From Candidatus Nomurabacteria bacterium (lineage in GTDB: Bacteria; Patescibacteriota; Patescibacteriia; HK-STAS-PATE-3), in contig CP060223.1 of the NCBI GenBank assembly GCA_023898465.1, positions 448,001 to 512,000 of the forward strand: a stretch of DNA of 64,000 bases, in the 5' to 3' direction. Below, piece after piece: positions 21,905 through 60,506 of this stretch. The notes under the pieces are model-generated. The model was not told where the DNA came from. It saw nothing but the letters and a program-made list of their open reading frames with translations, and made no database searches. Position 1 is the first letter of the stretch. The number at the start of each line of letters is the position of its first letter. The position numbers were made by a program, and so were the translations under genes.

Positions 21905-21905
21905 T

Positions 21906-23033: not shown

Positions 23034-23045
23034 GAATCCATTCAG

Positions 23046-23747: not shown

Positions 23748-23756
23748 TAATCCCAT

Positions 23757-25061: not shown

Positions 25062-25064
25062 GGC

Positions 25065-26030: not shown

Positions 26031-26031
26031 T

Positions 26032-26985: not shown

Positions 26986-26990
26986 TACCT

Positions 26991-27938: not shown

Positions 27939-27940
27939 CC

Positions 27941-28831: not shown

Positions 28832-28858
28832 CCATTTAGTATTCAGAAAAGTAAGCAT

Positions 28859-32057: not shown

Positions 32058-32059
32058 TA

Positions 32060-34012
32060 CTACTCTACAAAAGTGAAAAAATTATAGTATCCCGTAGAAT
32101 ATTCTAATCGAAATTTATCTTTTAATCGAGACTCTTCGACAATCTTCATCCTCAAATCTTGATCTTGAAAAAAATGATAAGAAGGGTCAAGTTGAGATTT
32201 AATAATATCGGATCGACGATAATAGCTCGACTGCATATCCTCTTTTGTAAAAAGTGGGGCTAAACGCTGATAGTCAGGCTCTGCATTTGCGGTAATAAGA
32301 TAGCGGACATGATACGCTTGCATTGTTTTTGCTAAACCACGAATAGCTATCGAATCTTCAAGTTTAGTTTCATCTAGAATATCAACATTTGCAAAACTGG
32401 GACGCCCTGATCCTATCGTAAGTGTCATTACAAAACTCTCATCAATATATATATCATCTAAGTCCGTATGCTGACGTAAATATGTTAGTGCATCTAAGTA
32501 TTCGGGACGTTGTTTTTCTAAGCGAACTTGAATTGCGTGCAGGTTTACTGGAAAGAGCCAGATGAAAGCATTAGCCAGAAAAAGAAGCATAAAAATCCTT
32601 TTATTGAGAAGCTTGGCAATACCATACAAGGTCAAGGCTGCCGAAAAACACAAAAAAACTAGAATTATCAAGGTGTAATAATTATGAAAAAAGATTACCT
32701 TGGAAGCGAGAATGAGATAAAAAACTGACGAAAATCCCAAAGTAATACCCATGTGCAAAATTCGCTTATTTGATTCTGTTTTTTGAAAAAAAATCAGAGG
32801 ACTGCAAATTATCCCTGCTATTGCCAACCACGCTATTGGAGTTGTAACATACTCGCGCAATTGAGAAAGCAATTCTTTATACATCGGCCAATAGAGAATC
32901 AATTGCCCGTCGGTCAAAAATTCTTTTACTGTATTTGAGTCTTTATTTTCCAACCAATAAAGAGTTATTCCTATAAAAACTAATCCGATACAAGCATACT
33001 TCCAAATTTGAAATTTTTGCACAAAAGCAACTATAGTTGCTATATATCTGGAAAAACGATGTCGGTAATGGATAAGGAGAAGTAAGGCGAGTAGCCAAAA
33101 AACAATAATAAAAGCGTCGCGTATGGGATAGCGCGGGAGACTAGATACAGCAGTCACAAGCATCCCGTATGGAATTGCCGCGATGAAAAAAAATGTAAGG
33201 CTTTGCTGAATAAAAAAAGAGATATTTTTTCGTTGTAACCAAAGCAACAATAGTGCAGCGGGAAGAAGCCACACACCAATAGAATCTTTCATCGTCAAAC
33301 CTAAACCAAAGCAAAGGCCAGCGGACATGATATAGACAGGATCTTTGGTTTTGAGTGACTCCGACAAAAAGGCTAAGGTTAAAAATGTACAAAGCAGCAA
33401 CAAATTATCATATACGGTAACAAAACTCGCAAAGCTAAGAATGGGATTTAACGCGAGTAAGCTTATTACTATTAACGAAGGGAATTTACTTATCCAATAT
33501 CGCAAAAAAATATATCCAGCGATTAAGGTGAGCATTCCGATCAAGTGTGTAAGTAAACGAGTATTCCATTCAAGCGAATTCTGAGGCAGCAGAGTATAAG
33601 TACCTGCTAAAGACCATTCCAAAACTGGAATGTGTGAAAAATCATTAAAAATTCCTTGGGGATTGCTTACGGGATTTGCTAAATATTTCCTTTGATGCCA
33701 AAAGGGATTTTTCATTTCAATCATGTGGAGCGCCGGCTCTACATAGGTGTTGTACTTTAATTCATGTTCACCAGTAAAATTGTATGAAAAATATGGAAGC
33801 TTAATCAGGGTCCAAGCGAATAGGATCAAGAAGAGAAACGTAAGGGCAATCCAGTTTTCACGAACGATAAAACGAAAAAACGATCCGAGGATAGGCAACT
33901 CCGCGAAACGTGGGAAGCGCGTCCTAAAGACCTCTACCCTCTTCGCGTCGTTCTGAGCCTCATTTTCACTTTCTTGCCCGATTTGTTTACCGAGCCTAGT
34001 TAGTACATTCAC
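32060..34012 (-). CDS. Large polytopic membrane protein, GT-C-like glycosyltransferase candidate, paralog B (650 aa)
   Basis: About 13 hydrophobic segments, a domain paralogous to the 836-aa neighbour, and a C-terminal soluble domain. Confidence 0.5.
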   Translation of the reverse strand: MNVLTRLGKQIGQESENEAQNDAKRVEVFRTRFPRFAELPILGSFFRFIVRENWIALTFLFLILFAWTLIKLPYFSYNFTGEHELKYNTYVEPALHMIEMKNPFWHQRKYLANPVSNPQGIFNDFSHIPVLEWSLAGTYTLLPQNSLEWNTRLLTHLIGMLTLIAGYIFLRYWISKFPSLIVISLLALNPILSFASFVTVYDNLLLLCTFLTLAFLSESLKTKDPVYIMSAGLCFGLGLTMKDSIGVWLLPAALLLLWLQRKNISFFIQQSLTFFFIAAIPYGMLVTAVSSLPRYPIRDAFIIVFWLLALLLLIHYRHRFSRYIATIVAFVQKFQIWKYACIGLVFIGITLYWLENKDSNTVKEFLTDGQLILYWPMYKELLSQLREYVTTPIAWLAIAGIICSPLIFFQKTESNKRILHMGITLGFSSVFYLILASKVIFFHNYYTLIILVFLCFSAALTLYGIAKLLNKRIFMLLFLANAFIWLFPVNLHAIQVRLEKQRPEYLDALTYLRQHTDLDDIYIDESFVMTLTIGSGRPSFANVDILDETKLEDSIAIRGLAKTMQAYHVRYLITANAEPDYQRLAPLFTKEDMQSSYYRRSDIIKSQLDPSYHFFQDQDLRMKIVEESRLKDKFRLEYSTGYYNFFTFVE

Positions 34013-46032: not shown

Positions 46033-46569
46033 CTAATGAAGATTGGTTTGCAACTGAGCCTTTTGTAGGAGCTTCATTGCCTCGCTAGTAATTACCTGCA
46101 CCTTTTCCTCCCCTTTATCAACTATTTTTTGTAGCACTTCAAAGGGGTGTAGCTTGGTAAAGTTTCCTTGCACCACTTTCTTTGTTTGCTTCTGAATTGC
46201 TCGCGGCATAACTTTTACGACATCATTCATCATATGCTGAGGGGAAAAGATATATGCTGCAGTAACCTTACCACTGTGCATAATCGTCTGCAGACTGCTC
46301 TCTAACTGACGGAGAAACTTCACTCGCAAGGAAGCCTCCACATCTTCTCGCACCGCGCCAGAAGCAAGAGTTTTTCCACCTCGGCGTTTGGCAAAATGGC
46401 CCTCCTTATCTGAGTATTCCGGCGCCTCGATTCTATATGAGAGCACGTTTTCTATTGTGCCATTCATTGCCTCATAGAGCTCGAGGGATTTTGTCCCAGT
46501 CACAATAAACAAGGCGCGCTCATTAGTAAACTGAGGCAGTGTTTGCGTAATATGTAATCTTCGTCGCAT
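46033..46569 (-). CDS. Hypothetical protein, possibly eRF1-like/host-attachment-protein-like fold
   Basis: Start chosen at MRRRLHITQ (rc of cat 46567-46569) because a perfect AGGAGG SD lies 5 nt upstream; the track ORF begins at an upstream GTG. The pattern ...EGHFAKRRGGKTLASGAVREDVEASLRVKFLRQL...AAYIFSPQHMMNDV loosely recalls the Host_attach family. Confidence 0.4.
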   Translation of the reverse strand: MRRRLHITQTLPQFTNERALFIVTGTKSLELYEAMNGTIENVLSYRIEAPEYSDKEGHFAKRRGGKTLASGAVREDVEASLRVKFLRQLESSLQTIMHSGKVTAAYIFSPQHMMNDVVKVMPRAIQKQTKKVVQGNFTKLHPFEVLQKIVDKGEEKVQVITSEAMKLLQKAQLQTNLH

Positions 46570-46913
46570 AGATCCTCCTACATAAGTTAATAGTTTGAAG
46601 CTATCTCTATATGTATTACCTGAGGGCGAAGAGCATTCTTTCACTTCCACAATGGGGATGAAAAAACCGAGGAGGCAGTTGGCGTTCACTCGGATTCCCC
46701 TGGCGCAGCTGGTGCTGTAGTTGCAGTCCTTTGCTGAATAGATTGTATGTTTAGGTTACTCGCCACAAAAGCACATGTCAATATTGACGCTAGGTAAAAA
46801 CTCTTGTGCAATAATATTTTTTAGTTCGGGGAATCGAAAATCGCCTGCGAATGTTACAGCAGCTTCTTTGCTCTATGCAATTTACCCGTCTCAAGAAATA
46901 ATCTTCGCTGCGA

Positions 46914-46987
46914 TGGCTCGGGAGCAGGGACTCGAACCCCGGTTACTAGGGCCAGAACCTAGCGTCCTACCACTAGACGACTCCCGA
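46914..46987 (-). tRNA. tRNA-Gln (anticodon CUG), CCA encoded
   Basis: The rc reads UCGGGAG-UC-GUC-UAGUGGUAG-GAC-G-CUAGG-UUCUGGC-CCUAG-UAAC-CGGGG-UUCGAGU-CCCUG-CUCCCGA-G-CCA. It has a 7-bp acceptor with U1:A72 and G73 (Gln identity elements), anticodon loop UUCUGGC, and T-loop TTCGAGT. Confidence 0.85.
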
Positions 46988-47047: not shown

Positions 47048-48673
47048 TTATGCGCTAAAAGCCTGCAAGACCTTGTCCCAAGTGCTATCACCAGTCGAAA
47101 CCTCTGAGCGACTAGGGGCCGCTTTTGCAGGGGCCACGCGATCACTCGTATCAAGACTCACATCATCCAAGCGTTGAGGAATATCATCAGCCCGCGTGTA
47201 CTCTACTCGCTCAACCACCCCTTCAATTTTTAAGTCCTCGCCAGTCAATTCACGAAGTGCTTCAAGAAGCACTGCCCTATTTTTATGCTCAAGCAGCTGG
47301 TCACGATGAAATGGATAAGCTGCTGAAATAGTAAAAACCCCCTCCTCTTTGGCTTTTGGACGACACACTTTTAATACCACGGCCAAGCTATGTGAACTTT
47401 CGCTCACCTTTAACACTAATGACTCCCAGAGCTTTTGTACCCCCACGTCAGCAGGTAAAGAGGCTTTTACGGGTTTTTCTTTTTTTGCCTTAGGAGCTGG
47501 CGCTTCGGTTTTTTCCTCTACTTGAGGGATTTCCTCGGTGGGAGCACTAGGGGTTGAAGGAGGCTCAGGTGGGCTTGGCGGATCTTCAGGTGGACGACTT
47601 ATTGTCTCCCCTCCCTGGGATTGTTCAAGTATAAAAAGCTCTATTGGAAGCTCTGGCACTTGTACATCACGAAGCATGCCTTCCAGCTCCAATAATCCAC
47701 GCAACCAACTAGACAACATGCCTGGTCGTAATTTGGTTGAGAGTTCGGCTATATCACCTTTCTTTGCCTGTTTTTCCGCTGCTGTTTGGATTAAATCTTG
47801 CACCACGCCCAACATATCGAGATAGAACTGCTCAACGCGACTACCCGCCGCTAAGGCCTCACGCAATTCATTCCGTGCTTGCAGTGGATCCGCTTCAGTG
47901 ATTGCGGTAAAAACCTTAATAGCCCGCTCGCGGTCACGTCGAGGCAAAACCATTGCCGCAACCTCTTCAGTTATTTCCTTTTCTTCGAGGGAGAGAAGCT
48001 GACTTAAAAGACTCTCTGCATCGCGAATTGAACCGTCTGCTAAGTGAGCTACCTGCTCTAAGACTGAATCAACAACTTTTACCTTTTCCTTCTTACATAA
48101 ATCCTGCAGTCGATCGAGTAAATCTTCTGCCTCTAGACGGCGAAAATCAAAACGCTGACAACGTGAAATAATAGTTTCCGGAACCCGTTCAATGTCAGTT
48201 GTTGCAAAAATAAATACCACAAACTCAGGTGGCTCTTCAATTATCTTAAGTAGTGCGTTAAATGCTGAGGTCGACAGCATATGCACCTCATCGATAATAA
48301 ACACTTTATACGGAAAAACACTCGGACGAGTGCGTGCGTTTGGAATGATGTTCTCGCGCACATTATCTACCTGGGTATGAGAGGCCGCGTCCATTTCAAT
48401 GACATCCATTGCGCGATTCTCACGAAAGGCCTGACAATTTGCACACTTGGTACACGGCTCAGCTCCTTGGCGCTGTGCACAATTGATCGCCTTTGCAAAA
48501 ATGCGAGCAGTGGTTGTTTTACCAACCCCTCTCGGACCAGTGAACATATAGGCATGGCCAATACGGTCGCTGATGATCTCCCGCTCCAAAGGCAAACGAA
48601 TATGCTTTTGGTTCACTAAATCAGCAAAAGTCTGCGGTCGGTAGGTACGTGATAATGAGGTAGTTCCAGCCAT
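47048..48673 (-). CDS. dnaX: DNA polymerase III subunit gamma/tau
   Basis: YRPQTFADLVNQKHI...HAYMFTGPRGVGKTTTARIFAKAINC...CTKCANCQ (zinc module), FIIDEVHMLS, SRCQRFDF and a proline-rich linker. Confidence 0.9.
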   Translation of the reverse strand: MAGTTSLSRTYRPQTFADLVNQKHIRLPLEREIISDRIGHAYMFTGPRGVGKTTTARIFAKAINCAQRQGAEPCTKCANCQAFRENRAMDVIEMDAASHTQVDNVRENIIPNARTRPSVFPYKVFIIDEVHMLSTSAFNALLKIIEEPPEFVVFIFATTDIERVPETIISRCQRFDFRRLEAEDLLDRLQDLCKKEKVKVVDSVLEQVAHLADGSIRDAESLLSQLLSLEEKEITEEVAAMVLPRRDRERAIKVFTAITEADPLQARNELREALAAGSRVEQFYLDMLGVVQDLIQTAAEKQAKKGDIAELSTKLRPGMLSSWLRGLLELEGMLRDVQVPELPIELFILEQSQGGETISRPPEDPPSPPEPPSTPSAPTEEIPQVEEKTEAPAPKAKKEKPVKASLPADVGVQKLWESLVLKVSESSHSLAVVLKVCRPKAKEEGVFTISAAYPFHRDQLLEHKNRAVLLEALRELTGEDLKIEGVVERVEYTRADDIPQRLDDVSLDTSDRVAPAKAAPSRSEVSTGDSTWDKVLQAFSA

Positions 48674-48742: not shown

Positions 48743-49363
48743 CTAGACTGGGGAGTCTAGATCGTCTTCTGCCACTTCAGTCGGAAATTCTTCGAGTGGT
48801 GCTACTGGAGTACCGTCGGACTTTTTGATGATATTTTCCACAGCTGCCCACTGGCTATCCTTTTCTTTTGGCACCAAAATAACGATCTCATCGCCTACCT
48901 CGCCTTTAAAATACGTCACACTGGCCAAAAGCACTTTATATGCTCGATTGGCAGCCGCAACCTCGAATTCGCCACTGGTTTCATCGCGCAATAATTGACC
49001 AATGAGTCGTTGTCGCTCAGTTGGGCCAATCTGCTTATACACAAACGAACCATCGGTCATAATAGTGAGTTTAAGGCGATCGCCTTCAACTAGCTTGGAT
49101 TTTGAGGCATAGTTTGCCGGCACCGAGTACTGCTTGCCATCAGGTCCCAGCATATTTTGACCGTCAAAGAGGCCTTCAACTACTTTGGCGCCGTTTTCAA
49201 CAGTCATTTTACCGTTTTGACGAGCCTGAGCTAAGAGGTCGGTATTTGCGCCAACTGCCTCTGTGCCATCATCCTCAAGCATGGCCTTGGCTCTCGCTAG
49301 GCTCTGCTCGGCACTTTCAATCAATTGACGTATGATTTTTGCGTTATTTCCGTTACTCATTTT
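48743..49363 (-). CDS. Hypothetical protein
   Basis: 206-aa ORF from the internal ATG (MSNGNNAKIIRQ); the track ORF starts at TTG 49411. No recognisable motifs. Confidence 0.4.
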   Translation of the reverse strand, partial: KMSNGNNAKIIRQLIESAEQSLARAKAMLEDDGTEAVGANTDLLAQARQNGKMTVENGAKVVEGLFDGQNMLGPDGKQYSVPANYASKSKLVEGDRLKLTIMTDGSFVYKQIGPTERQRLIGQLLRDETSGEFEVAAANRAYKVLLASVTYFKGEVGDEIVILVPKEKDSQWAAVENIIKKSDGTPVAPLEEFPTEVAEDDLDSPV

Positions 49364-49407: not shown

Positions 49408-49944
49408 TCAACGTATATAGAGGTAGACTGTCCCGCTCTTTGGATCAGGTTTATCAGCCTTTTTTGGAGAAATATTGGGGAAAGGAAAAGCATAGCTTAC
49501 TAAGCGACTTCCCGGTTTTGCCTCGGCTAACCACTTCTTTTCAAGCTTAGCCATGGCTTTTGGAGTAAGAAAACAGGCAATTAGATCGGCTTGATCAAGC
49601 TTCTGATGAAAAAAATCTCGGAAATGCATTTTTGCCTGTGATCGAGCTAAACCGCGCAAACGCCATAACGAGGCAAGGTAAGGAAGAAGCGAAATCTCAA
49701 AACCCTCCGCCCGAGCCTGATATTGCTTTACCGCATGAAGCAAAAAGCGGCCGTCACCGGCTCCCAGGTCCATGACAAGCTCGCCTGGCTGGACATTGCT
49801 TAACTGAAACATCCGCTCAACATCACGTTGACGAGTAGGAAGCCAAGGCGCTGCCCGCAAGCCAGCGAAAGCAGCGCTACCAAGAAATAAAATAAGAAAG
49901 ACAAAGAAGATGAAAATTGGCGATGTGGAAGCGAGGCTTACCAT
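49408..49944 (-). CDS. Class I SAM-dependent methyltransferase with N-terminal TM helix
   Basis: PIFIFFVFLILFLGSAAFA helix, then VMDLGAGDGRFLL (motif I). Confidence 0.55.
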   Translation of the reverse strand: MVSLASTSPIFIFFVFLILFLGSAAFAGLRAAPWLPTRQRDVERMFQLSNVQPGELVMDLGAGDGRFLLHAVKQYQARAEGFEISLLPYLASLWRLRGLARSQAKMHFRDFFHQKLDQADLIACFLTPKAMAKLEKKWLAEAKPGSRLVSYAFPFPNISPKKADKPDPKSGTVYLYIR

Positions 49945-49955
49945 ATTAAGGCGAC

Positions 49956-52581
49956 CTATGCTTTACCATTAGCGAACCTTGGCCAAGGCCAAAGAGCACT
50001 ATGATACAAGTAATAAATCCCGTTGCGATAAGCGCAAAACCCACAGTAGACCCGCTCAAAATAAATACTCCATACCAAAGTGGGCTGACGAGACAATTCA
50101 CGGACCTGCTGTGCTGCTAATTCGGGGTTTGATGCGGTCGGCGGCAATGACTGCATATTAAAAGCACGAGCCGCAGTATTCTGTATCAAAAGCTTCACAT
50201 ACGCATTATAGCGCTCAATGTTAATCACATCATACTCATTAAAGACCGGTGAAAACTGTCGAGCAAAAACTTCTGCATCTTCCGCCCACCCGGAAAGCCA
50301 ACAAAGTCCCAACTGTACCCAAGACCGCGTCTCGCATGGTCGACTTACCGTCTTCAATAAGCTGACCTAGATATTGATGCGCAAGTGTTAAGCAGAGTCG
50401 ATACTTACGCGCTTCGGAAAGAATAGTTGCAATTGATGGCGTAATAAAATTTTGAAATTCATCAATGTACAGGTAAAAATCTTTGCGCTCTGTTTCAGGC
50501 AAAGCCGCCCGTGACATTGCGGCCATTTGAAGCTTGGTTACCAGGATAAGCCCAAGCAGATTAGAGTTCACTTCACCGGTCCGTCCCTTGGAGAGGTTCA
50601 CCAAGAGTATTTTTTGTTCATCCATTATTTTCCTAAAGTCAAACCCGGAGTGCGGTTGACCAATGATGTTGCGCATCATGCGGTTTTCTACAAAGCGACC
50701 GACTTTAGAAATAAGATAGCCAAGCATTTCGGACTTGTGGAAGTCTGAAGTCTGTGCCATTTCCTTTTCCCAAAAAGCCCGAACAACCGGATCTTGCACC
50801 TTACTCAACTTATATCGCTGGAAAGTCTTGTCAGTAAACATGCGTGGAATATCAACAATCGTTCCTGGTGCCTCGCGATCAGCCGCTAAAGTAAGCATAA
50901 CGTTACGCATATTATGCTCAAACATCGGGCCAATCATTTCTGGCGGGAAAAGCTTGTAGAAAATGGCAATCATTTCTTGTATAGCAAAGTCGATTTGCTC
51001 TTCTCCCTCAGCATCAAGCATATTCAAGCCAATGGGACGCTCAGTATCAGCCGGCTCAAACAATACCACATCCTTCATGCGTTCTTCTGGTATCGAGCCC
51101 AGTAAATGCTCAACTAAATCACCATGCGGATCAATCACGCAGACACCTTCACCGTTGCGAATATCCTGCTTGGCCATTTCCTGCATTTCAACCGATTTAC
51201 CTGTGCCGGTAATACCAATGATATAGGCATGACGGCGACGATCTTCTCGCGAAATACGTATGGGCGTGCGAGCGCCCCGATAGATATTTGTACCAAGTAA
51301 GAGACCTTCCTGTGGCACATTGACCGGTGGTGGCGCCTTACGAGCACCCAACCAAAGAATATTTGGAGTCTCAATCGTGGCTGAGGGCAGGTGATAAAGA
51401 CTGGCCAATTCCTCAGTATTTAACACATAGCGACGGCCCTCATTAAAACTACGATAAACAAAGTCCCGCACAAAACGAGTTTTAGAAAGGAGGGAGCGTT
51501 GTCGAAATCCATTACCTGATTCTGGTGAGGTGTATTGGGAAAAGGCATTCACCACGGCCTGATGAATCATGCGTGCTCGCGCTAGGGTTTGGGAGGCGGC
51601 AATGACACGTATATTCACATGAAAACCTGATTTAGAAGACTTTACCCCAATAGCCTCCACCTTACTCTGCTCAGCCGGCGTCATTTGATATGGAGTCATT
51701 TCCCGTTCCATCCGCTGCCGTCGATCAGCTTCACTTGTACCAGAGACGCTTGATTGCAAAGTACGGAAAGTGGCGCCCAGCACTGACATAGCACCTGAAT
51801 TACCTTGCCCAACCGGCTTACCATCCTGAATACGTCTGGCAATAGCATGTCCGCTCTTTTGCCAGCTCGTACCTGCCGGACGCAAGACCATTTGAATTGC
51901 CGCGCCTTCATTAGGGTCCAGCTTTGACATCACATTAGTTAATGCGTTCAGTGGATCAGACTCAAGTGTACGGTAGCTGCGTATTGGATAGGCGGAAGCT
52001 TTTGCGAGCGTCAAATAACTTCCCGCCACATAACCCTGCGGAGGGAAAATATTATAGTCAGGCACTTCCTCAATATGCGCCATGGGATATTGCGCTTGTA
52101 CTTGTGATTCGAGGAGCTGCTGCAAGTGTCTCGGTACGGCCATGTAAAACTTTATCAATCCCTTTTGCGCAACAATTTCAAACGCGAGATGATCGGTTCG
52201 GCCATAGAGAAAATTATACCAAGCGTTCGTAAGAATATTTGCGTGCTGTTCAGCCTTGATGCCAGCTAGGTTGGCATAGAGCGTTTCTGCCACGGAGAGG
52301 AGTTCGCGCGGATCACTTGGTTGATGTTCATCTTGCGCCGCCTCTTTAGGCACTGTTACGAGCAGTACTACATGCTCCAAAGCAACTGGCACACGATGCT
52401 TTGCTCGCACATACCAGCGAATTAACCAGAGGGCTAATACAACAACCAGCCCAAAAAGCACTATTGGCCATACTACTTGCACTATAGGTTGCTCAAAAAA
52501 ACTCTGGCTAATATCTTCAACCGAGGGGGTGGCTAAACTTCCACCTGGCCCGCCTATTTGTAATAATGCACCAAAAATCAT
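49956..52581 (-). pseudogene. FtsK/HerA-superfamily type IV secretion ATPase (VirB4/TraC- or VirD4/TraD-like) with N-terminal TM helix; C-terminal frameshift
   Basis: The 780-aa frame carries Walker A IIGITGTGKSVEM at ~aa 445, Walker B LYIDEFQNF, and ARKYRLCLTLAHQYLGQL. That frame ends in junk (RVGGRCRSFCSTVFTGL). The conserved continuation AEDAEVFARQFSPVFNEYDVINIERYNAYVKLL is in the overlapping 49956-50357 frame, with the switch at a gggtgggcgg run near 50310. Confidence 0.6.
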
Positions 52582-53099
52582 AAATCCTTTTCTGGATGAC
52601 GTAAGCGCAAAATCTTATCTGTCTTAATTTTTGCTTCTTGCTCGAGATAATATTGACTCACGCCCGGGATAAATCGTAGCCAACGTAAAATAACCTTCGT
52701 TATGGCCTGTACCTTTACTTTTACCGCACTCAGCAATTCGGTAACCTTTTGAGCGGTTTTTTCTCCTTCTTGTTTGAAGCGCTGCTGCTGCTCAGGACTC
52801 ATCCCGCGAAAAACCTCTTGCAGATTTTCCTCCAAAATAGCCTCTACCTGCTGCGCTGGCGTACCATAAGGGAGGGCCGGCTCTATTTGACTGGTCTTAG
52901 TCTGCGGTTGAGCAATTCGTCGTCGAGATTCCGTATCAGAATGTATTTTTTCCTGCTCGTGTTGCGACTCACTTTCAAGAACCCTTTCAGGCTGCGGAGC
53001 CTGTTCAATCCCAAATTCAGGAGCTATCGCCTCGGGCTTTGCACGCTCTGGCGAAAAAGCCGGTGGTGCTTCTTGATGTTCCTTTGTTTGATCAGCCAC
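52578..53099 (-). CDS. Hypothetical acidic/Gln-rich protein coupled to the T4SS-type ATPase
   Basis: 173 aa with 4-nt overlap to the downstream ATPase. No TM helix and no known motif. Confidence 0.4.
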   Translation of the reverse strand: MADQTKEHQEAPPAFSPERAKPEAIAPEFGIEQAPQPERVLESESQHEQEKIHSDTESRRRIAQPQTKTSQIEPALPYGTPAQQVEAILEENLQEVFRGMSPEQQQRFKQEGEKTAQKVTELLSAVKVKVQAITKVILRWLRFIPGVSQYYLEQEAKIKTDKILRLRHPEKDL

Positions 53100-53272
53100 G
53101 TGTGTTCCCCTATACCCCTTAAAACAAATGAAAGTATAACATTTTCATCTTGCTTTCTCAACTTGAAGAAAAAAGAAAAGCCCCGCTCCAATTTGTTCGG
53201 AAGACTCCTCGGGATGAGAAGTGCTCGGAACAAACCAGAGCGGAGCAGATAAGGCCTTACCCAATCAACGGC

Positions 53273-53458
53273 TTAGTATGCACCCATGTACACACTTGCA
53301 CCGACAGCCCATAAAAAGCTGAAAAGAATGAGTAGGGCAGAAAGTGTGACACCTTCCATAACTTCAACCAGGACATGTGGCTGTGCTTTAGCTTGGGCAG
53401 CAGCTGGCTGGTCAGTAGTTGAAGCTACCGGTGTGGTATTCATTTGTGATGGTTCCAT
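53273..53458 (-). CDS. Small hydrophobic protein (pilin/VirB2-sized)
   Basis: 61 aa with a single C-terminal TM helix (VTLSALLILFSFLWAVGASVYMGAY). Placement upstream of the T4SS-type ATPase is suggestive only. Confidence 0.3.
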   Translation of the reverse strand: MEPSQMNTTPVASTTDQPAAAQAKAQPHVLVEVMEGVTLSALLILFSFLWAVGASVYMGAY

Positions 53459-53528
53459 TTTTCTTTTTCCTTTTTGCTCCGTTGTACTGAACGGAGATAA
53501 TTTTTTTTAAACCGACTCCCTTCGACCT

Positions 53529-54530
53529 TTATACGGGAACTTGGTTTCGAGATGATGAGGTGGGAAGTGTTGGCGCAATCTTAGGAGCATGCGCTTGCAG
53601 CTCTTCTTCCAGTCGGTTGTCCTTTTCCCACTCTTGGACAACGGTCAGAATATCAGATTCGATAACTGTTGGTACTTTGCCGTCTTGATTGTTCAGTGAC
53701 TCGAGTTTTACTTTGGCAGCCGCTTCATCAATCACATCAATTGCTTTATCCGGGAAATGACGGTTGCTTAATTTTTGATTAGAAAGTTGCACCGCATAAT
53801 TTAATGCCTCGTCGGTAATACGTACACCATGGTGCTTTTCATATCGCGAACGTAATCCATACAAAATTTTTAAAGTCATGTCGGCACTTGGCTCTTCAAT
53901 GGCAACCGGCTGGAAGCGTCGCTCTAGAGTACTGTCACGTGAAATATAATTTGTATACTCTTCAGGGGTAGAAGCGCCAATGACTTGTAACTCACCGCGT
54001 GCTAGAGCCGGCTTCAGAATATCGGCTGCATCAATTGCACCAGATGCCTCACCTGCCTCGGCTAAGGTATGAATCTCGTCGATGAACAAAATGATTGTTC
54101 GGTTCGCATGAATGATTTCATCGCGTAAAGTTTTTAAGCGCTTCTCAAATTCACCGCGATATTTTGTGCCAGCAACCAAGCCAGCTAAGTCGAGAGCTAG
54201 CACGCGTTTCCCTTTCAAAGTTTCGGGAACTTTTCCGTTGGCAATTTCGCTGGCTAACTCCTCAACTATAGCCGTCTTACCAACTCCTGAGTAACCGATC
54301 AACACGGGATTATTTTTTGTACGGCGTGAGAGAATTTGAATAAGTCGATGAATCTCATGACTGCGACCAATCACTGGATCTAATTTCCCTTGGCGTGCAA
54401 GGTGGGTTAAATCATTTGCGTATAAACCTAAAGTCGAGACATGATGGCCGCCATCCCTCTGTCCCTTAACGTAATAAAAAATTACCAGCAGTCCAATCAA
54501 CCCAATTCCGAGTGGTACAAATATTTCCAT
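53529..54530 (-). CDS. Membrane-anchored AAA+ ATPase consisting only of a Clp/Hsp100 D1 module
   Basis: N-terminal TM ([21 protein letters not shown]), then [66 protein letters not shown] and [18 protein letters not shown], collinear with ClpB/ClpA D1. No N-domain, M-domain or D2. Confidence 0.7.
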
Positions 54531-54578: not shown

Positions 54579-54842
54579 TTATTCTTCTGAGGTAACAAAG
54601 ACTTGATCTACGCCGAGCACTTCGCCATTGCGATATGTTTTTGTCGCGCTAGCGGTCGGGATAGTGTCTTGCTTCCCGCCTGTCCAAGTGTAGATGGCGG
54701 AAAAAAGAACTGAGCCAAGTACGATAACACCCACTGACACAACATAGAGCAGGGCTATTTTTTGACTTGTGCTTACTTGTGTAGTGGTTTGTACTGGGAT
54801 TGTTTTTTTATTTGGCATAAGGCCTCCTGGTTTGAAAAACAA
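54579..54842 (-). CDS. Small hypothetical membrane-anchored protein
   Basis: 87 aa (or 79 aa from MPNKK) with one TM helix (IALLYVVSVGVIVLGSVLFSAIY). Confidence 0.3.
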   Translation of the reverse strand: MFFKPGGLMPNKKTIPVQTTTQVSTSQKIALLYVVSVGVIVLGSVLFSAIYTWTGGKQDTIPTASATKTYRNGEVLGVDQVFVTSEE

Positions 54843-55263: not shown

Positions 55264-55713
55264 CTACTGTCCGCGAACCGTGAAGTCCGGTCCGCCGTTG
55301 TTGTTGGTGCACACCGCGACGACCCAAGCGTACTTGCCCGTGAAACCGCGGACGGTTTCAACTTCGTAGATGCGCTCAGCCGTGATCGCCGGCACGTTGA
55401 TGGTGAAAGTACGAAACACACGATCACTGATCTGTGACTGATACACTTTGATAGTGTATCGCCCCTCGTTCAGGGTCATAGTCCCGTACTCATTGGGATG
55501 CACGGTCAGTCTTCGCGGCGGAGTACCGTCTTGCTCGTCCGCCGCTGCATGCCGAGTGATCTCGTACGACAAGGTGTAGTTCCAGTCGTTCGAGAAGATG
55601 CCTTCCGAACCTGCGAAATCCGGTCCCGTGAGCGTGAATGCACACCCAGAGAGGAGCGACGCTACGATGCCCAGAAGAGCAACGATAGCGAAGAAACGGT
55701 TGAACACCTGCAT
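55264..55713 (-). CDS. Lipoprotein (GC-rich islet)
   Basis: Signal peptide with lipobox LLSGC (MQVFNRFFAIVALLGIVASLLSGCAF). Local GC is clearly above the flanks. Confidence 0.55.
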   Translation of the reverse strand: MQVFNRFFAIVALLGIVASLLSGCAFTLTGPDFAGSEGIFSNDWNYTLSYEITRHAAADEQDGTPPRRLTVHPNEYGTMTLNEGRYTIKVYQSQISDRVFRTFTINVPAITAERIYEVETVRGFTGKYAWVVAVCTNNNGGPDFTVRGQ

Positions 55714-55719
55714 TGTTCA

Positions 55720-56142
55720 TTACCTCCCAATCACCACGCCAGCAGCGTAGCGATGGTTGTAGTAGCGGAAGCTCCGTCCTTGATATGGGACGAAGAACTT
55801 TCCGTCACGTGTCTTCTTCCCATCGACGTTGAAGGATGTCCAGAGATACTTGCCCTCCGGATACCACTTCACGAAAGTCGGACATGTTCCGTCCAACGTG
55901 AATTGGTCCAGAGGATTCCTGTCAGAATCGTAGACGATCACTCGTTGCGTGAAATCCCGAAGTGGACCAGTGTTGGCGAAGATGACTTCCCCGCCTCCAG
56001 TCGACTCCACCACCTCGTGTCCATGCGCGACAGGGTTGTCGCACACGAAAACTTCGTGACAGAAGCGAGCTGTCGGTCCGCAACCCGTGAGGAGGGTCAC
56101 GCCAGCAGTCAACAACATGATGACAAAGAGCGAGCGGTTCAT
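55720..56142 (-). CDS. Lipoprotein (GC-rich islet)
   Basis: Signal peptide with lipobox LLTGC (MNRSLFVIMLLTAGVTLLTGCG). GC-rich, 6 nt from the previous gene. Confidence 0.55.
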   Translation of the reverse strand: MNRSLFVIMLLTAGVTLLTGCGPTARFCHEVFVCDNPVAHGHEVVESTGGGEVIFANTGPLRDFTQRVIVYDSDRNPLDQFTLDGTCPTFVKWYPEGKYLWTSFNVDGKKTRDGKFFVPYQGRSFRYYNHRYAAGVVIGR

Positions 56143-57693: not shown

Positions 57694-58068
57694 TTACACT
57701 GAGACAAAGCTTTTTGCATAGGTGATGGCTTCATCCATGCCGCCTTCGTATTTCACCACGTACTGATCAGCCACTTCCCTACCTGCTTGCATATCCACGC
57801 GTGAACATAGGGAGCTAAGGAGTATTAAGGGGATGTGCTTTGTACGCTGGTCAGCTTTAATGCAACGAGCAGAGGCAATTCCATTCATCACTGGCATAAC
57901 AATATCTGAAATTATCAGGTCCGGCTTTTCATTCATAACTATAGATACCGGATCAGCACTTGGGTTAGTAAAGTGTCGCACCTCAAAGCCAGCTTGGCGC
58001 AGACGCTGGCCAAACTTTTCTGCAAAAGCTGGGTCATCTTCAAAATGAAGTACTCGAGGTTTAGACAC
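57694..58068 (-). CDS. Stand-alone response-regulator receiver (CheY-like)
   Basis: VLHFEDDPAFAE, phospho-acceptor context LIISDIVMP, and a conserved K region. No output domain. Confidence 0.75.
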   Translation of the reverse strand: MSKPRVLHFEDDPAFAEKFGQRLRQAGFEVRHFTNPSADPVSIVMNEKPDLIISDIVMPVMNGIASARCIKADQRTKHIPLILLSSLCSRVDMQAGREVADQYVVKYEGGMDEAITYAKSFVSV

Positions 58069-58147: not shown

Positions 58148-58834
58148 ATGAAAATACTACTCATCGAAGACAACCCAGAAATCCGTGAGTTTCTCAAGCC
58201 GGCTTTAGAAGCGGAGGCTTTTTCAGTTGATATTGCTGAGAATGGTAACATTGGTGCAAAAATGTCATGGGATCACACCTATGACTTGATTATTTTGGAC
58301 TACATGCTGCCGGATAAAAATGGCTGGGAAGTATGCCAAGAAATAAGAAATCGTGGAAATAAGGTACCTATTCTCGCACTTTCGGTGGTAAATGATACCG
58401 AAAAGAAAGTAGAATTTCTCAACTCAGGCGCTGATGACTATCTCACGAAACCTTTTTCCTTTAATGAATTATTAGCCAGAATTAGGGCACTTTTGCGTCG
58501 ACCCGATACTTTTGTGCACAATACACTGGCCGTTGGTGACCTTGAAATGGATCTCATTCAGCAAACAGTACGATGTGGGGGCCAAGAAGTATATCTAACT
58601 CGCAAAGAGTTTGAATTATTGGAGTATTTAATGCGAAACCCAGATCGTCCTTTATCCCGAGGAATGATTATTGAGCATGTCTGGGATATGGCAATTAATA
58701 CTTTTTCAAACACAATAGAAACGCATATTTTCAATTTGCGTCGGAAGCTCAATGAAAAAGCTTCGCGACAAATAATCGAAACACTCCCGGGTCGAGGTTA
58801 TAAAATAAGTTCAGTTTCCAAAATCACTTCTTAA
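58148..58834 (+). CDS. OmpR/PhoB-family response regulator
   Basis: Receiver domain (KILLIEDNPEI...LIILDYMLPDKNG...ADDYLTKPF), then a winged-helix domain (LTRKEFELLEYLMRNPDRPLSRGMI...LPGRGYKI). Confidence 0.85.
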   Translation: MKILLIEDNPEIREFLKPALEAEAFSVDIAENGNIGAKMSWDHTYDLIILDYMLPDKNGWEVCQEIRNRGNKVPILALSVVNDTEKKVEFLNSGADDYLTKPFSFNELLARIRALLRRPDTFVHNTLAVGDLEMDLIQQTVRCGGQEVYLTRKEFELLEYLMRNPDRPLSRGMIIEHVWDMAINTFSNTIETHIFNLRRKLNEKASRQIIETLPGRGYKISSVSKITS

Positions 58835-59051: not shown

Positions 59052-60506
59052 ATGAACGCTCCGACGCCTCAGTTTGGAAACGGCTTTTTTTCAAAACCGA
59101 ACTACCCGCGTAAGGGCGTTCATTTTTTTCGTCTGCTTTTTGCACTTAAATCCATTGATGAGGATAAGCGTCGTAAGGAATTTATTCTCCTTATTATTCT
59201 GACGACCTCCATACTTATTGTCCTAGCGCTGAATCTCAGCGTACTTATTCGATTACTGCAAAGCCCTGACTTCACCGATCTGCGAGTTGCCGTCCCTTTC
59301 ATCATACTTCTCGCCTTTGTTTTTCTCTTCTGGTTAATGAAAAAACAACACATTACGATTACATCGTACATTGTCGTTGGAGTATATTTCTTCAGTATAA
59401 GCTTTGCTGCTTATACTTGGGGTATTGATTTGCCGGCCGCACTACTGAGTTTTGGTGTCCTCCTTTTTATTTCCGGAATGCTTATTTCAGCTCGCTTTGG
59501 TATTGGCTTGGCTATTGCCACTGCGGCTATCTTGATTTATTTTGCGTATCTGGAAGAGCACGGTATACACACACCGGACCGAGCCTGGATACAACAAGGG
59601 ATACGAGTAAGCGATGCCATAAATTTTTCTATCATACTGCTCTTTTTAACTGTGATCTCATGGCTGGCTAACTCCCAAATCAATAAATCTTTGCAACGCG
59701 CTCGATATTCTGAGGAAGCCCTGAAACAAGAGAAAGACCTACTAGAAATTACGGTACAAAATCGCACAAAGGCTTTGCGAAAAATTGAGCTACAAAAAAT
59801 ATCCGAGCTGTCTCAATTTGCTGAATTTGGCCGACTAGCAGCAGGACTGTTTCATGATCTCATTAATCCACTTAATGGCCTGCTCTTAAATATCCATCGC
59901 CTCTAACAAAGTGATGAAGCAAAGCAAGGAGACACACAAGAACGTATACAGCAAGCCGTAAAAGTAGGAGCTAAATTACAAGAATTTATTCAAAGGATTA
60001 AAAAGCAAATTAGTCGGGAACAAAGCCATGAAATATTTTTCCCAGCAAATGAGATTAGCGATGTTATCGAGCTACTGCGATACCAAAGCACTGAAGCAAA
60101 GGTGCATATCGCCTGCGTGACCACTAGAGAAATTTCCATTTATGGCTCCCCTCTCCTGTTTAGACAGCTCATACTCAATCTCCTAACCAACGCGATTGAG
60201 GCGTATCAAGGAACTGAGCAAAAAGATAAAACTGTACTCATCACACTTCATGCAGATAATGCAAATAATGAACTGAGCGTCCGAGATCATGGAGTTGGTA
60301 TCCCGAAAGATAAGCTCTATAAAATATTTGAGCCATTTTATACGACCAAGCCTAGTGATACTGGGATAGGCATTGGACTATCCACCGTTAAAAGTATTGT
60401 TGAGCAAGAATTGGGAGGAAGTATTAAGGTGCAAAGCGGCGAATATACAACCTTTACCATTCGTTGGCCTCAAAACTCTTCACCGACGCGACATGGAGAA
60501 CACTAA
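59052..60506 (+). pseudogene. Sensor histidine kinase interrupted by a single in-frame TAA
   Basis: TM sensor region and H-box ...AAGLFHDLINPLNGLLLNIHRL, then TAA at 59904-59906. The same frame continues QSDEAKQGDTQERIQQAVKVGAKLQEF...VHIACV into the HATPase_c domain (N-box NLLTNAIEA, DHGVGIP, G-boxes GIGIGLS) of track ORF 60102-60506. Confidence 0.6.

What the first reader, a model, noticed from the sequence alone, without database searches (positions are those of the whole stretch)
49956..54530. T4SS-type ATPase module: VirB3-VirB4-like or VirD4-like ATPase (frameshifted) + acidic partner + pilin-sized ORF + membrane-anchored Clp-D1-only AAA+ ATPase
The ~875-aa reconstructed protein has an N-terminal TM segment, a ~400-aa N-domain, Walker A GITGTGKS, Walker B DEFQNF and RKY...LAHQ motifs. 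These are typical of the FtsK/HerA-related conjugation/T4SS ATPases. Its conserved C-terminus (AEDAEVFARQFSPVF...) sits in a different frame at a G-rich run near 50310. It is translationally coupled to an unusual acidic 173-aa protein and preceded by a 61-aa single-TM pilin-sized ORF. Next to these is a membrane-anchored ATPase consisting solely of a ClpB-like D1 module. Together this could be a remnant or minimal type IV secretion, DNA-uptake or cell-cell transfer apparatus of the kind small-genome episymbiotic bacteria are reported to depend on. No relaxase, VirB6 or VirB11 is present in the window.
Basis: partly seen in the sequence, partly recalled or inferred. Interest (0 to 1): 0.55.

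Follow-up and report, generated by a model that had tools for sequence, protein, structure and literature searches.

The report
Broken orphan conjugation-type coupling ATPase gene
This is a damaged copy of a membrane-anchored VirD4-type "coupling" ATPase gene and its small partner gene, a pair that related ultra-small (Patescibacteria) bacteria carry intact among housekeeping genes; the small ORF and Clp-like ATPase next to it are unrelated neighbours, so no secretion apparatus is encoded here.

Summary
The large ORF (50239-52581, minus strand) is a VirD4/TrwB-type type IV coupling protein (T4CP), not a VirB4. Its layout is one TM helix, a roughly 370-aa N-domain (Pfam DUF8128), then a HerA/FtsK-class ATPase with an all-alpha insertion. 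More than 2,000 Patescibacteria homologues of 840-890 aa exist. In 80 species the gene sits in a conserved housekeeping context: small partner gene, T4CP, an OB-fold protein, then dnaX. No VirB4 or relaxase lies within 10 kb. The 173-aa partner is a genuine companion: it is directly upstream in 66 of 77 loci and naturally fused to the T4CP in three proteins.

The 61-aa ORF and the Clp-D1-only AAA+ belong to a separate gene block. That block was inverted in this lineage, which is what creates the apparent module.

A short-read contig from a sibling strain carries the intact gene. Against it, the window has a 2-nt deletion in a conserved Val codon and a 687-nt deletion. The larger deletion removes the T4CP tail and most of a downstream membrane-protein gene.

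The locus is therefore a disrupted member of a known, functionally uncharacterised orphan-T4CP family. Interest is modest.

The parts
52578..53099 (-). 173-aa partner protein of the T4CP. It has a variable, acidic, Pro-rich N-terminal half and a highly conserved helical C-terminal ~90 aa (FK.EGEKTA ... WL..IPGV..F.EQEAKIKTDKILRL).
   Evidence: Its stop overlaps the ATPase start as ATGA. It is directly upstream on the same strand in 66 of 77 eligible species loci. It is fused N-terminally to the ATPase in P0008, and in P0010 and P0012 by length. There are 25 homologues, all 'hypothetical', with no Pfam or NCBIfam hit. AF2 models it as three helices preceding the TM helix.
50284..52581 (-). Authentic residues 1-766 of the T4CP-like ATPase (annotated in NCBI as the 780-aa USN54004.1). 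Layout: TM helix (about residues 33-55), DUF8128 N-domain (about 60-430), then P-loop ATPase with Walker A at 456 and Walker B at 705.
50283..50290 (-). Frameshift site. Here a 2-nt deletion plus one substitution lie inside the conserved Val codon of the RVG-V-EDAE motif. After it, the original frame reads 14 junk codons and stops at 50239.
   Evidence: tblastn of six homologue C-termini switches frame exactly here, with one residue missing. Sibling-strain contig L087 reads GGGTGGGAGTGGAAG where the window reads GGGTGG--GCGGAAG.
50085..50282 (-). A +1-frame continuation encoding 66 authentic ATPase residues (EDAEVFARQF ... RELSRQ).
   Evidence: The L087 translation is identical apart from one extra Ala in the window.
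50084..50085 (-). Junction of a 687-nt deletion relative to the sibling strain. The deletion removes the last ~33 codons of the ATPase (HFGQSREEVEKDIVERSRLG...GERLV*), the intergenic spacer and about 187 codons of a 232-aa multi-TM protein gene. It lies next to 9-nt direct repeats (CACTTTGGT) that are 689 nt apart in L087.
   Evidence: blastn of L087 against the window, L087 translations, and repeat positions and deletion size.
49946..50084 (-). Remnant 3' end (45 codons plus stop) of the deleted 232-aa membrane-protein gene. It is the source of the 51-aa 'TM ORF' at 49946-50101.
   Evidence: The L087 232-aa protein ends ...IPLWYGVFILSGSTVGFALIATGFITCIIVLFGLGQGSLMVKHRSP*, identical to the window frame. 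This gene has no homologue in the 80 related loci.
53273..53458 (-). 61-aa protein with a single C-terminal TM segment. It is a companion of the AAA+ gene, not of the T4CP, and is not pilin-like.
   Evidence: No Pfam or NCBIfam hit. TM-like windows span residues 28-61. Its homologue in L004 lies directly downstream of the AAA+ gene on the strand opposite to the T4CP. Small TM ORFs flank the AAA+ gene in several relatives. It is present in sibling-strain contigs L084 and L085.
53529..54530 (-). 333-aa membrane-anchored AAA+ protein made of an N-terminal TM helix plus a ClpB/ClpC D1 module only (large and lid subdomains). It has no N-domain, M-domain or D2.
   Evidence: Pfam gives AAA and AAA_lid_9. 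NCBIfam matches ClpB residues 153-400 at 4e-115. PDB matches ClpC residues 159-410 at 2e-93. The TM segment is at residues 1-23. The closest relative also has a 333-aa protein. It lies upstream and divergent in 20 of 59 loci and is co-oriented in 0 of 59.
54579..54842 (-). Small single-TM protein upstream of the AAA+ gene. It is 87 aa from TTG, or 79 aa from the ATG called in the sibling strain.
   Evidence: Its homologue in L004 is adjacent to the AAA+ gene.
49408..49944 (-). 178-aa TM-anchored class I SAM methyltransferase. It is a frequent but not constant neighbour.
   Evidence: NCBIfam matches the archaeal-type protein-lysine N-methyltransferase at 1e-14, below its cutoff. Pfam hits are weak. 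It lies downstream of the T4CP in 28 of 68 loci.
48743..49360 (-). 205-aa conserved Patescibacteria protein made of a helical hairpin plus two OB/S1-like beta-barrels. It lies between the T4CP and dnaX in most relatives.
47048..48673 (-). dnaX (DNA polymerase III tau/gamma), the downstream end of the conserved gene string.
   Evidence: The ORF is. Pfam DNA_pol3_delta2 and DNAX_ATPase_lid are recorded on the syntenic genes. It lies downstream on the same strand in 38 of 44 loci.

Best explanation
**What it is.** The locus encodes the Patescibacteria version of a type IV coupling protein (T4CP, VirD4/TrwB class) together with a dedicated small partner protein. Both lie in a vertically inherited housekeeping neighbourhood, far from any T4SS channel genes.

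**What is shown.**
- The protein has one N-terminal TM helix, a ~370-aa cytoplasmic N-domain (DUF8128), and a HerA/FtsK-superfamily P-loop domain carrying the all-alpha insertion typical of T4CPs.
- Both the N-domain and the ATPase are homologous to a plasmid protein from Gram-positive bacteria that sits next to a relaxase and a separate VirB4-type ATPase.

**What is inferred.**
- Like other T4CPs, it should assemble as a membrane-anchored hexameric ring. That ring would use ATP to recognise a polymer substrate (DNA or unfolded protein) and feed it to a membrane conduit.
- The most likely conduit is the chromosomal Patescibacteria T4SS encoded elsewhere in the genome.
- The partner, whose conserved helical C-terminal half is sometimes fused directly in front of the TM helix, would act as a membrane-proximal adaptor or regulatory subunit.

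**State in this genome.** The gene is inactivated. A 2-nt deletion truncates it after residue 766 of about 866. A separate 687-nt deletion removed its 3' end together with most of the next gene. A sibling strain 95-99.5% identical over this region retains the intact gene.

**The neighbours.** The 61-aa ORF, the 87-aa ORF and the membrane-anchored Clp-D1-only AAA+ form an independent gene block. It lies beside the T4CP operon only because of a lineage-specific inversion.
For: **Family assignment**
- Pfam TrwB_AAD_bind, T4SS-DNA_transf, TraG-D_C and DUF87 are all above their gathering scores.
- The only PDB sequence relative is TrwB.
- The AF2 model has pLDDT 85 and an all-alpha insertion.
- The DUF8128 profile against the pBM69 833-aa protein gives hhalign probability 99.5% and E=1e-22 over 327 columns.
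- That pBM69 protein aligns over residues 43-749 with all 80 relatives and the window, best E about 1e-45 to 1e-51.
- In pBM69 it is followed by a Replic_Relax relaxase and accompanied by an AAA_10 VirB4-type ATPase and 'conjugal transfer' genes.

**Orphan status and conservation**
- There are at least 2170 homologues of 840-890 aa and 2305 cluster representatives of the N-domain.
- The gene reads in a single frame in 78 of 80 species.
- Conserved order: partner in 66 of 77 loci, OB-fold protein in 45 of 53, dnaX in 38 of 44.
- No VirB4 or relaxase lies within 10 kb in any locus or in the window.
- The literature reports 5,713 VirD4-like T4CP homologues in 2,918 Patescibacteria genomes, only 148 of them near virB4. 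The Southlakia copy is non-essential (PMC12102498).

**Partner**
- ATGA overlap, natural fusions and invariant C-terminal motifs.

**Lesions**
- Frame switch. Intact allele in contig L087, and the 687-nt deletion.

**Separate AAA+ block**
-. The same arrangement in sibling-strain contig L084 shows the inversion is not a misassembly.
Against: - No biochemical or genetic data exist for this family. The substrate, the conduit and the oligomeric state are inferred from homology only.
- Canonical T4CPs have two TM helices and no DUF8128 domain.
- The very high conservation (50-69% identity across classes, long invariant stretches in the all-alpha region) and the housekeeping context are unlike plasmid T4CPs. 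They would also fit an exapted, T4SS-independent role.
- The topology of the fused form is puzzling. The partner has no TM-like segment yet precedes a TM helix predicted to be N-out.
- Whether the two lesions are real mutations or errors of the source assembly cannot be decided without its reads. The intact allele comes from a different strain (98.3-99.5% identity), not from the same genome.
- Only a 64-kb window was examined, so I cannot say whether this genome has a T4SS or a second T4CP copy.
Confidence: 0.7

Rival explanations
1. It is a VirB4-type (or VirB3-VirB4 fusion) T4SS assembly ATPase.
Against: TM-scores to TrwK are only 0.23-0.33 with rmsd about 15 Å. There is no Pfam CagE_TrbE_VirB or AAA_10 hit, whereas the T4CP families pass their thresholds. 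The pBM69 homologue that shares the N-domain coexists with a separate AAA_10 VirB4-type ATPase, and that VirB4-type protein finds nothing in the window or in 80 loci. A published HMM survey classifies the Patescibacteria VirD4-like homologues, to which this family probably belongs, as T4CPs distinct from the Patescibacteria VirB4 clade. The DUF8128 profile finds no PDB sequence at all, VirB4 included.
Confidence: 0.07
2. It is an exapted housekeeping DNA (or RNA) translocase that works independently of any T4SS. For example, it could act in chromosome segregation, DNA repair or uptake, together with the OB-fold protein and the replisome gene dnaX. It would be T4CP-like only by descent.
Against: Conserved gene order in these small genomes need not imply function. 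There is no NurA-like nuclease or FtsK gamma-type domain. The membrane anchor and the T4CP-type all-alpha domain are retained. t4cp genes are often encoded far from virB4 in bona fide systems. The gene is apparently lost in this strain and non-essential in Southlakia, which argues against a core replication or segregation role.
Confidence: 0.2
3. The gene is intact in the organism, and both lesions are artefacts of the metagenome assembly or of strain-mixture consensus. The module is then a normal, functional copy.
For: The frameshift lies in a G-rich stretch (GGGTGGGCGG), and the source is a single 1.08-Mb MAG contig. The rest of the ORF keeps every family-invariant residue. Differences from the sibling strain in this region are mostly synonymous. 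NCBI annotated the gene as an ordinary CDS.
Against: There are two independent lesions in one gene, and one of them is a 687-nt deletion, which is not a typical consensus error. Other genes in the window are interrupted by substitutions rather than indels: an in-frame TAA in a histidine kinase, and a flippase split within one frame. This points to real gene decay. The neighbouring genes compared with the sibling strain show no frame-breaking differences.
Confidence: 0.25
4. The frame change is a programmed +1 ribosomal frameshift that still yields a full-length protein.
For: The two frames overlap, and the downstream frame encodes 66 authentic residues.
Against: The sibling strain and 78 of 80 species encode the region in one frame. 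A conserved Val residue would be skipped. No slippery or stimulatory element was sought. Even with frameshifting, the 687-nt deletion leaves the product without its conserved C-terminal tail.
Confidence: 0.02

Closest known systems
Orphan VirD4-like T4CP homologues of Patescibacteria (Quinonero-Coronel et al. 2025, Microb Genom, PMC12102498); Pfam architecture DUF8128 (PF26449) + TrwB_AAD_bind + T4SS-DNA_transf + TraG-D_C
   Same: The window ORF itself carries PF26449+PF10412+PF01935. It is 50-69% identical to hundreds of Patescibacteria proteins named 'type IV secretion system DNA-binding domain-containing protein'. It is chromosomal and not next to virB4 or a relaxase, as the paper reports for most copies.
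   Different: This copy is disrupted by a 2-nt and a 687-nt deletion. I did not find the conserved partner gene, its natural fusions, or the partner-T4CP-OB-fold-dnaX order in the passages of that paper I read. No paper in the library mentions DUF8128.
Conjugative coupling proteins TrwB (R388), VirD4, TraD, Cagbeta and DotL
   Different: It has one TM helix rather than two, and an extra ~370-aa N-domain between the TM helix and the ATPase. It has no relaxase or T4SS genes nearby and lies in a housekeeping context. It is far more conserved than plasmid T4CPs. All NCBIfam TraD/VirD4 equivalog scores are far below their cutoffs.
833-aa 'DUF87 domain-containing protein' of Bacillus methanolicus plasmid pBM69 (WP_003349917.1) and related Firmicutes and haloarchaeal plasmid proteins
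   Same: They share both the DUF8128-type N-domain (hhalign 99.5%) and the ATPase (tblastn over residues 43-749). This gives the same two-domain layout.
   Different: The plasmid protein is only about 25% identical. It is encoded beside a Replic_Relax relaxase, a VirB4-type AAA_10 ATPase and conjugal transfer genes. No partner-like ORF was detected there. In Halomontanus the N-domain match falls on a separate upstream ORF.
VirB4/TrwK T4SS ATPase
   Different: There are no VirB4-specific sequence family hits, global TM-scores are low, and it is distinct from the AAA_10 VirB4 of the related plasmid system.
ClpB/ClpC class I AAA+ unfoldases (for the 333-aa neighbour)
   Same: The D1 nucleotide-binding module and its lid are highly similar (4e-115 to ClpB; 2e-93 to ClpC). 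By eye in the translation, Walker A (GVGKT), Walker B (IDEIH) and a KYRGEFE pore-loop motif are present.
   Different: It lacks the N-domain, the M-domain/coiled coil and the whole D2 ring, and has an N-terminal TM anchor instead. It is a conserved 333-aa form in relatives, not a truncation.

Membership tests
Type IV coupling protein (VirD4/TrwB/TraD/TraG) | HerA/FtsK-superfamily P-loop NBD with Walker A and B | tested here: met
Type IV coupling protein (VirD4/TrwB/TraD/TraG) | All-alpha domain inserted in the NBD (TrwB_AAD_bind) | tested here: met
   PF10412 scores 43.9 bits against a cutoff of 20.5, covering profile positions 8-310 of 387. AF2 shows a helical block at 685-851 inside the ATPase of homologue P0008. 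Foldseek gives TMt 0.64 to TrwB.
Type IV coupling protein (VirD4/TrwB/TraD/TraG) | N-terminal membrane anchor | tested here: met
   There is one strongly hydrophobic segment at residues 28-60, followed by RWYVRAKHR. The AF2 model has a TM helix. Canonical T4CPs usually have two TM helices (own knowledge).
Type IV coupling protein (VirD4/TrwB/TraD/TraG) | Genetic linkage to a relaxase and/or T4SS channel genes | tested here: not met
   No VirB4 (AAA_10) or Replic_Relax hit was found in the 64-kb window or within 10 kb in 80 related loci. No T4SS family was found by Pfam among the 48 window ORFs scanned. The rest of the genome was not available.
Type IV coupling protein (VirD4/TrwB/TraD/TraG) | Hexameric ATPase that couples substrate to a T4SS | not testable with these tools
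   This needs biochemistry, structures or genetics.
DUF8128-bearing T4CP subfamily (Pfam PF26449) | DUF8128 domain directly after the TM helix and before the ATPase | tested here: met
   PF26449 is precomputed for the window ORF P0001 and for all homologues listed. A search with the N-domain alone finds 2305 representatives, matched near the N-terminus in the rows shown. TrwB- or DUF87-type ATPase domains follow it in 5 of 7 long or distant members scanned. hhalign to the pBM69 T4CP N-domain gives 99.5%.
DUF8128-bearing T4CP subfamily (Pfam PF26449) | Intact ORF of about 840-890 aa | tested here: not met
   The window ORF stops at 780 aa after a 2-nt deletion, and the 3' end is removed by a 687-nt deletion.
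VirB4/CagE/TrbE | VirB4-specific sequence families (PF03135 CagE_TrbE_VirB; AAA_10; TraC/TrbE equivalogs) | tested here: not met
   There is no PF03135 or PF12846 hit. TrbE, TraC and VirB4_plasma give only P-loop-level hits of about 15 bits against cutoffs above 560. The pBM69 VirB4-type protein has no tblastn hit in the window.
VirB4/CagE/TrbE | VirB4-type N-terminal domain fold | tested here: inconclusive
VirB2/TrbC pilin or type IV pilin (for the 61-aa ORF) | Pilin family signature: signal or prepilin leader plus the characteristic hydrophobic helices | tested here: not met
   There is no Pfam or NCBIfam hit. It has a polar N-terminal half and a single C-terminal hydrophobic segment at 28-61. 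It travels with the AAA+ gene in the relative L004.
ClpB/ClpC/ClpA class I (two-ring) AAA+ | D1 module | tested here: met
   It matches ClpB residues 153-400 at E=4e-115, has AAA and AAA_lid_9, and matches ClpC residues 159-410.
ClpB/ClpC/ClpA class I (two-ring) AAA+ | N-domain, middle domain and D2 ring | tested here: not met
   The protein is 333 aa, and matches cover only D1. Residues 1-23 form a TM segment.
HerA-NurA DNA end-resection/translocase | Adjacent NurA nuclease; soluble HerA with a HAS barrel | tested here: not met
   The neighbours are the partner, a methyltransferase, an OB-fold protein and dnaX. NF040819 HerA scores 15.7 bits against a cutoff of 970. The protein is membrane-anchored.

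The most novel reading that the evidence does not exclude
The partner-T4CP pair is not a coupling protein for secretion. Instead it is a Patescibacteria-wide, vertically inherited nucleic-acid translocase that was exapted from a monoderm conjugation system. It would act with the OB-fold protein next to dnaX, for example in handling incoming or replicating DNA at the membrane. Its recent loss in one strain, while a sibling strain keeps it, would show that it is conditionally dispensable.
Probability: 0.15. Interest if true: 0.6.

Novelty: new member of a known kind. Interest (0 to 1): 0.3.

Why it matters
Patescibacteria depend on host cells, and their T4SS is essential in the one genetically tractable species. 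The thousands of T4CP homologues encoded away from that T4SS have no assigned role.

This locus adds several concrete handles:
- The family always carries a DUF8128 N-domain, which it shares with relaxase-linked T4CP-like proteins on Gram-positive (pBM69) and, by tblastn, haloarchaeal plasmids. This supports descent from monoderm conjugation systems.
- It has a dedicated small partner, sometimes fused to it. That partner is an obvious target for interaction and structure studies.
- It keeps a fixed place beside an OB-fold protein and dnaX.
- If the lesions are real, one natural strain has lost it while a sibling strain keeps it. This agrees with its non-essentiality in Southlakia.

For genome scanning, the case is also a caution. 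The apparent 'T4SS module' is a chance juxtaposition created by an inversion.

Tried and rejected
- **Second frameshift in the tail.** I suspected one because frame 2 reads HFGME, resembling the family's KYGR. I rejected this once contig L087 showed that the tail is simply deleted.
- **Same-genome check of the lesions.** No contig with the same sequence was available. The cluster look-up of the 780-aa ORF has a single member. The only overlapping contigs come from a strain 95-99.5% identical.
- **R388 record for a direct VirB4 profile comparison.** It was not in the plasmid collection.
- **The 232-aa membrane protein lost in the deletion.** It has no homologue in 80 loci, so it is not part of the conserved unit.
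- **Partner-like ORF next to the plasmid T4CPs.** None was found.
- **Overlapping ORF pairs elsewhere in the window, as a proxy for indel errors.** Four of the five pairs are separate complete genes. The fifth pair includes the HATPase_c-only fragment that turned out to be the 3' half of the interrupted histidine kinase.
- **TipAS hit of the partner.** At E=0.005 and below its cutoff, I dismissed it as noise.
- **Literature search for DUF8128.** It returned no papers.

Full report
**1. Observation**

On the minus strand the window carries five co-directional ORFs:
- 87 aa at 54579-54842
- 333 aa at 53529-54530
- 61 aa at 53273-53458
- 173 aa at 52578-53099
- 780 aa at 50239-52581

The 173-aa stop overlaps the 780-aa start as ATGA. 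The 780-aa ORF has one strongly hydrophobic segment at residues 28-60, Walker A GITGTGKS at 456, Walker B YIDEFQNF at 705, and EARKYRL...LAHQY at 723-737.

The conserved continuation AEDAEVFARQFSPVF... lies in the +1 frame.

**2. What the large protein is**

*Sequence families and solved structures.* Pfam places it in the coupling-protein families:

| Pfam family | Bits | Gathering score |
|---|---|---|
| TrwB_AAD_bind | 43.9 | 20.5 |
| T4SS-DNA_transf | 23.2 | 20.1 |
| TraG-D_C | 22.8 | 22 |
| DUF87 | 30.8 | 23.2 |

There is no VirB4/CagE or AAA_10 hit. NCBIfam gives only sub-threshold TraD, VirD4-like and CedD hits. The only solved structure detectable by sequence is TrwB.

*Homologues.* A homologue search returned at least 2170 proteins. 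The 120 best are almost all 840-890 aa (a few are shorter or are ~1,030-aa fusions), and every one that carries a source name is from Patescibacteria. All have the precomputed architecture DUF8128 (PF26449) + TrwB_AAD_bind, most with T4SS-DNA_transf/TraG-D_C as well. The exact window ORF is NCBI USN54004.1 from a 1.08-Mb 'Candidatus Nomurabacteria' MAG contig. Alignment A1 shows 51-66% identity and very long invariant stretches.

*Structure model.* An AlphaFold model of a homologue (mean pLDDT 85) has a TM helix, an alpha/beta N-domain, and a P-loop domain with a large helical insertion.
- Foldseek gives TMt 0.64 to TrwB. Its best E-values are to full-length TrwK/VirB4, but with TM-scores of only 0.23-0.33.

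*The N-domain.* The N-domain alone retrieves 2305 cluster representatives. In the 150 rows shown the match sits near the N-terminus. A TrwB- or DUF87-type ATPase domain follows it in 5 of 7 long or distant members scanned. It has no PDB sequence relative.

*The decisive link to conjugation.* tblastn against plasmids found proteins covering both the N-domain and the ATPase in Firmicutes and haloarchaeal plasmids.
- In Bacillus methanolicus pBM69 the 833-aa homologue is immediately followed by a Replic_Relax relaxase. It sits with 'conjugal transfer' genes and a separate AAA_10 (VirB4-type) ATPase.
- The DUF8128 profile matches its N-domain with hhalign probability 99.5% and E=1e-22.
- Its full length aligns with all 80 related loci and the window.
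- The pBM69 VirB4-type protein and relaxase find nothing in any of them.

I therefore assign the protein to the T4CP (VirD4) class, in a DUF8128-bearing subfamily, and not to VirB4.

**3. Context in relatives**

Eighty species-level loci were fetched and scanned with the window's proteins.

| Neighbour | Position relative to the T4CP | Loci with it / eligible loci |
|---|---|---|
| 173-aa partner | directly upstream, same strand | 66 / 77 |
| 205-aa protein | downstream, same strand | 45 / 53 |
| dnaX | downstream, same strand | 38 / 44 |
| 178-aa methyltransferase | between T4CP and the 205-aa protein | 28 / 68 |
| cysS | upstream | 35 / 56 |
| Clp-D1 AAA+ | 1.5-3 kb upstream, opposite strand | 20 / 59 |
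| Clp-D1 AAA+ | co-oriented | 0 / 59 |

This is a conserved housekeeping neighbourhood, not a mobile element or secretion island. It agrees with the published survey. That survey counted 5,713 VirD4-like T4CP homologues in 2,918 Patescibacteria genomes, only 148 of them near virB4. It reported the copy in Southlakia epibionticum as non-essential, and it left exaptation open (PMC12102498). The Southlakia T4SS cluster itself lacks a recognisable coupling protein (PMC10633639).

**4. The partner**

It has a variable, acidic, Pro-rich N-terminal half and an invariant-rich helical C-terminal ~90 residues. It has no Pfam or NCBIfam family, no TM-like segment, and pI 5.9.

In P0008 it is fused in front of the T4CP's TM helix. 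P0010 and P0012 look the same by length. This is a Rosetta-stone argument for physical association. AF2 models it as three helices upstream of the TM helix. How a segment without a TM helix can precede an N-out TM helix in the fusion is unexplained.

**5. The other neighbours**

*The 333-aa protein.* It is a TM helix plus a ClpB/ClpC D1 module only. It has the same length in the closest relative and in the sibling strain.

*The 61-aa and 87-aa ORFs.* They are single-TM proteins that flank this AAA+ gene.
- In the closest species (L004) the order is p140-p149-CorA-p87-AAA+-p61, transcribed away from the T4CP operon.
- In the window the same block, without CorA, is inverted and so reads towards the partner gene.
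- Sibling-strain contig L084 has the window's arrangement, so the inversion is real.
- The 61-aa ORF has no pilin features.

The 'module' is therefore a lineage-specific juxtaposition.

*The 205-aa downstream protein.* It belongs to a very large unnamed Patescibacteria family. It is modelled as a helical hairpin plus two OB/S1-like barrels.

*The rest of the window.* No T4SS, pilus or relaxase family was found among the 48 window ORFs scanned. The rest is mostly glycan and envelope genes. There is no T4CP paralogue in the window.

**6. The damage**

*Frameshift.* tblastn of homologue C-termini switches frame between AFRVG and EDAEVF, with the conserved Val missing.

*Intact sibling allele.* A Logan short-read contig from run SRR12358675 (L087, 2294 nt) carries an identical methyltransferase gene. 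It is 99.5% identical downstream and 95% identical over the T4CP 3' region.
- It reads GGGTGGGAGTGGAAG (RVGVED) where the window reads GGGTGG--GCGGAAG.
- It continues to a family-typical tail, ...RELSRQHFGQSREEVEKDIVERSRLG...GERLV*.
- A 232-aa multi-TM protein gene follows.

*Large deletion.* The window lacks 687 nt here, next to 9-nt direct repeats. The deletion removes the T4CP tail, the spacer and about 187 codons of the 232-aa gene. The 51-aa 'TM ORF' at 49946-50101 is that gene's remnant.

*Consequence.* The intact protein would be about 866 aa. The product here lacks roughly the last 100 residues of the ATPase domain.

*Recent, or artefact?*
- The remaining ORF keeps all family invariants.
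- By my reading of the alignment, the substitutions against the sibling strain are mostly synonymous.
- So the damage is either very recent or an artefact.
- Other interrupted genes in the window favour real decay. One is a histidine kinase with an in-frame TAA at 59904-59906. Another is a flippase gene split within one frame, and there are truncated glycosyltransferases.
- Only the source reads can settle it.

**7. Mechanism**

*Shown:* membership of the T4CP class by sequence and fold; the membrane anchor; the dedicated partner; the orphan housekeeping context; and the disruption.

*Inferred from T4CP biology (own knowledge):* a membrane-anchored hexamer that uses ATP to recruit a DNA or protein substrate and feed it into a membrane channel. 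The channel is probably the Patescibacteria T4SS encoded elsewhere, with the partner as a membrane-proximal adaptor.

*Main rival:* an exapted, T4SS-independent nucleic-acid translocase linked to the OB-fold protein and dnaX.

**8. Verdict**

The locus is a disrupted member of a known but functionally uncharacterised family.

The by-products are useful but incremental:
- the partner and its fusions;
- the DUF8128 link to relaxase-adjacent plasmid T4CPs;
- the fixed synteny with dnaX;
- a possible natural knockout.

Noticed in passing
window 59052-60506 (+): A histidine kinase gene is interrupted by an in-frame TAA at 59904-59906. The H-box (FHDLINPL) and TM segments lie upstream, and the HATPase_c domain continues in the same frame downstream. 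It sits next to two response-regulator genes (57694-58068 and 58148-58834).
   Followed up: partly
window 4685-8010: A cluster of gene fragments. It holds a GT4 glycosyltransferase lacking most of its N-domain (4685-5344), a GT2 lacking its first ~58 profile positions (6159-6686), and a Polysacc_synt (flippase) gene split into two same-frame pieces (6988-7491 and 7630-8010) with the middle missing. Together with the T4CP and the kinase, this suggests ongoing gene decay or local assembly problems.
   Followed up: partly
window 53529-54530 (-), with 54579-54842 and 53273-53458: A membrane-anchored ClpB/ClpC D1-only AAA+ of a conserved 333-aa length, flanked by small single-TM proteins. It recurs in 22 of 80 related loci. 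This conserved Patescibacteria unit has an unknown role and may deserve its own study, for example as a membrane-protein extractor.
   Followed up: partly
window 48743-49360 (-): A 205-aa protein with at least 8000 unnamed Patescibacteria homologues and no Pfam family. It is modelled with high confidence as a helical hairpin plus two OB/S1-like barrels, and sits almost always between the T4CP and dnaX.
   Followed up: partly
window 8403-12284 (+), GC 52-53% against about 44% in the flanks: A higher-GC segment encoding a FlgD_ig/Por_Secre_tail-like 185-aa protein, a 507-aa protein with no family, and a 592-aa M23 peptidase-domain protein. It may have been acquired horizontally.
   Followed up: no
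window 14000-34000: A low-GC (36-40%) island of glycan-biosynthesis genes. It includes glycosyltransferases, FkbM methyltransferase, DegT aminotransferase, an ATP-grasp protein, an ABC exporter, GH130-like proteins and two large PMT_2 proteins.
   Followed up: no
window 46033-46689 (-): A 218-aa protein with weak Host_attach and baeRF_family12 (release-factor-like) hits, next to tRNA-Gln (46914-46987).
   Followed up: no
L001 1-611: The closest relative carries a second TrwB_AAD_bind protein of 618 aa, with no DUF8128 listed, about 10 kb from the DUF8128 T4CP. Patescibacteria genomes can therefore hold more than one T4CP-like gene.
   Followed up: no
L089 8788-13000 (Halomontanus rarus plasmid): The match to the T4CP falls in two pieces that span a separate 378-aa ORF and the 1027-aa T4CP directly downstream, so the DUF8128-type N-domain appears to be encoded separately there. 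A second TraG-D_C protein of 1108 aa lies just upstream. This is a split version of the architecture.
   Followed up: partly
L039 and L074: In these two of the 80 species loci, the T4CP matches fall in more than one reading frame. They may be further frameshifted copies or second copies.
   Followed up: no
window 55264-56142 (-): Two small proteins (149 and 140 aa) have lipoprotein-type signal sequences (LLSGC and LLTGC). They are conserved with the closest relative and belong to the inverted block.
   Followed up: no
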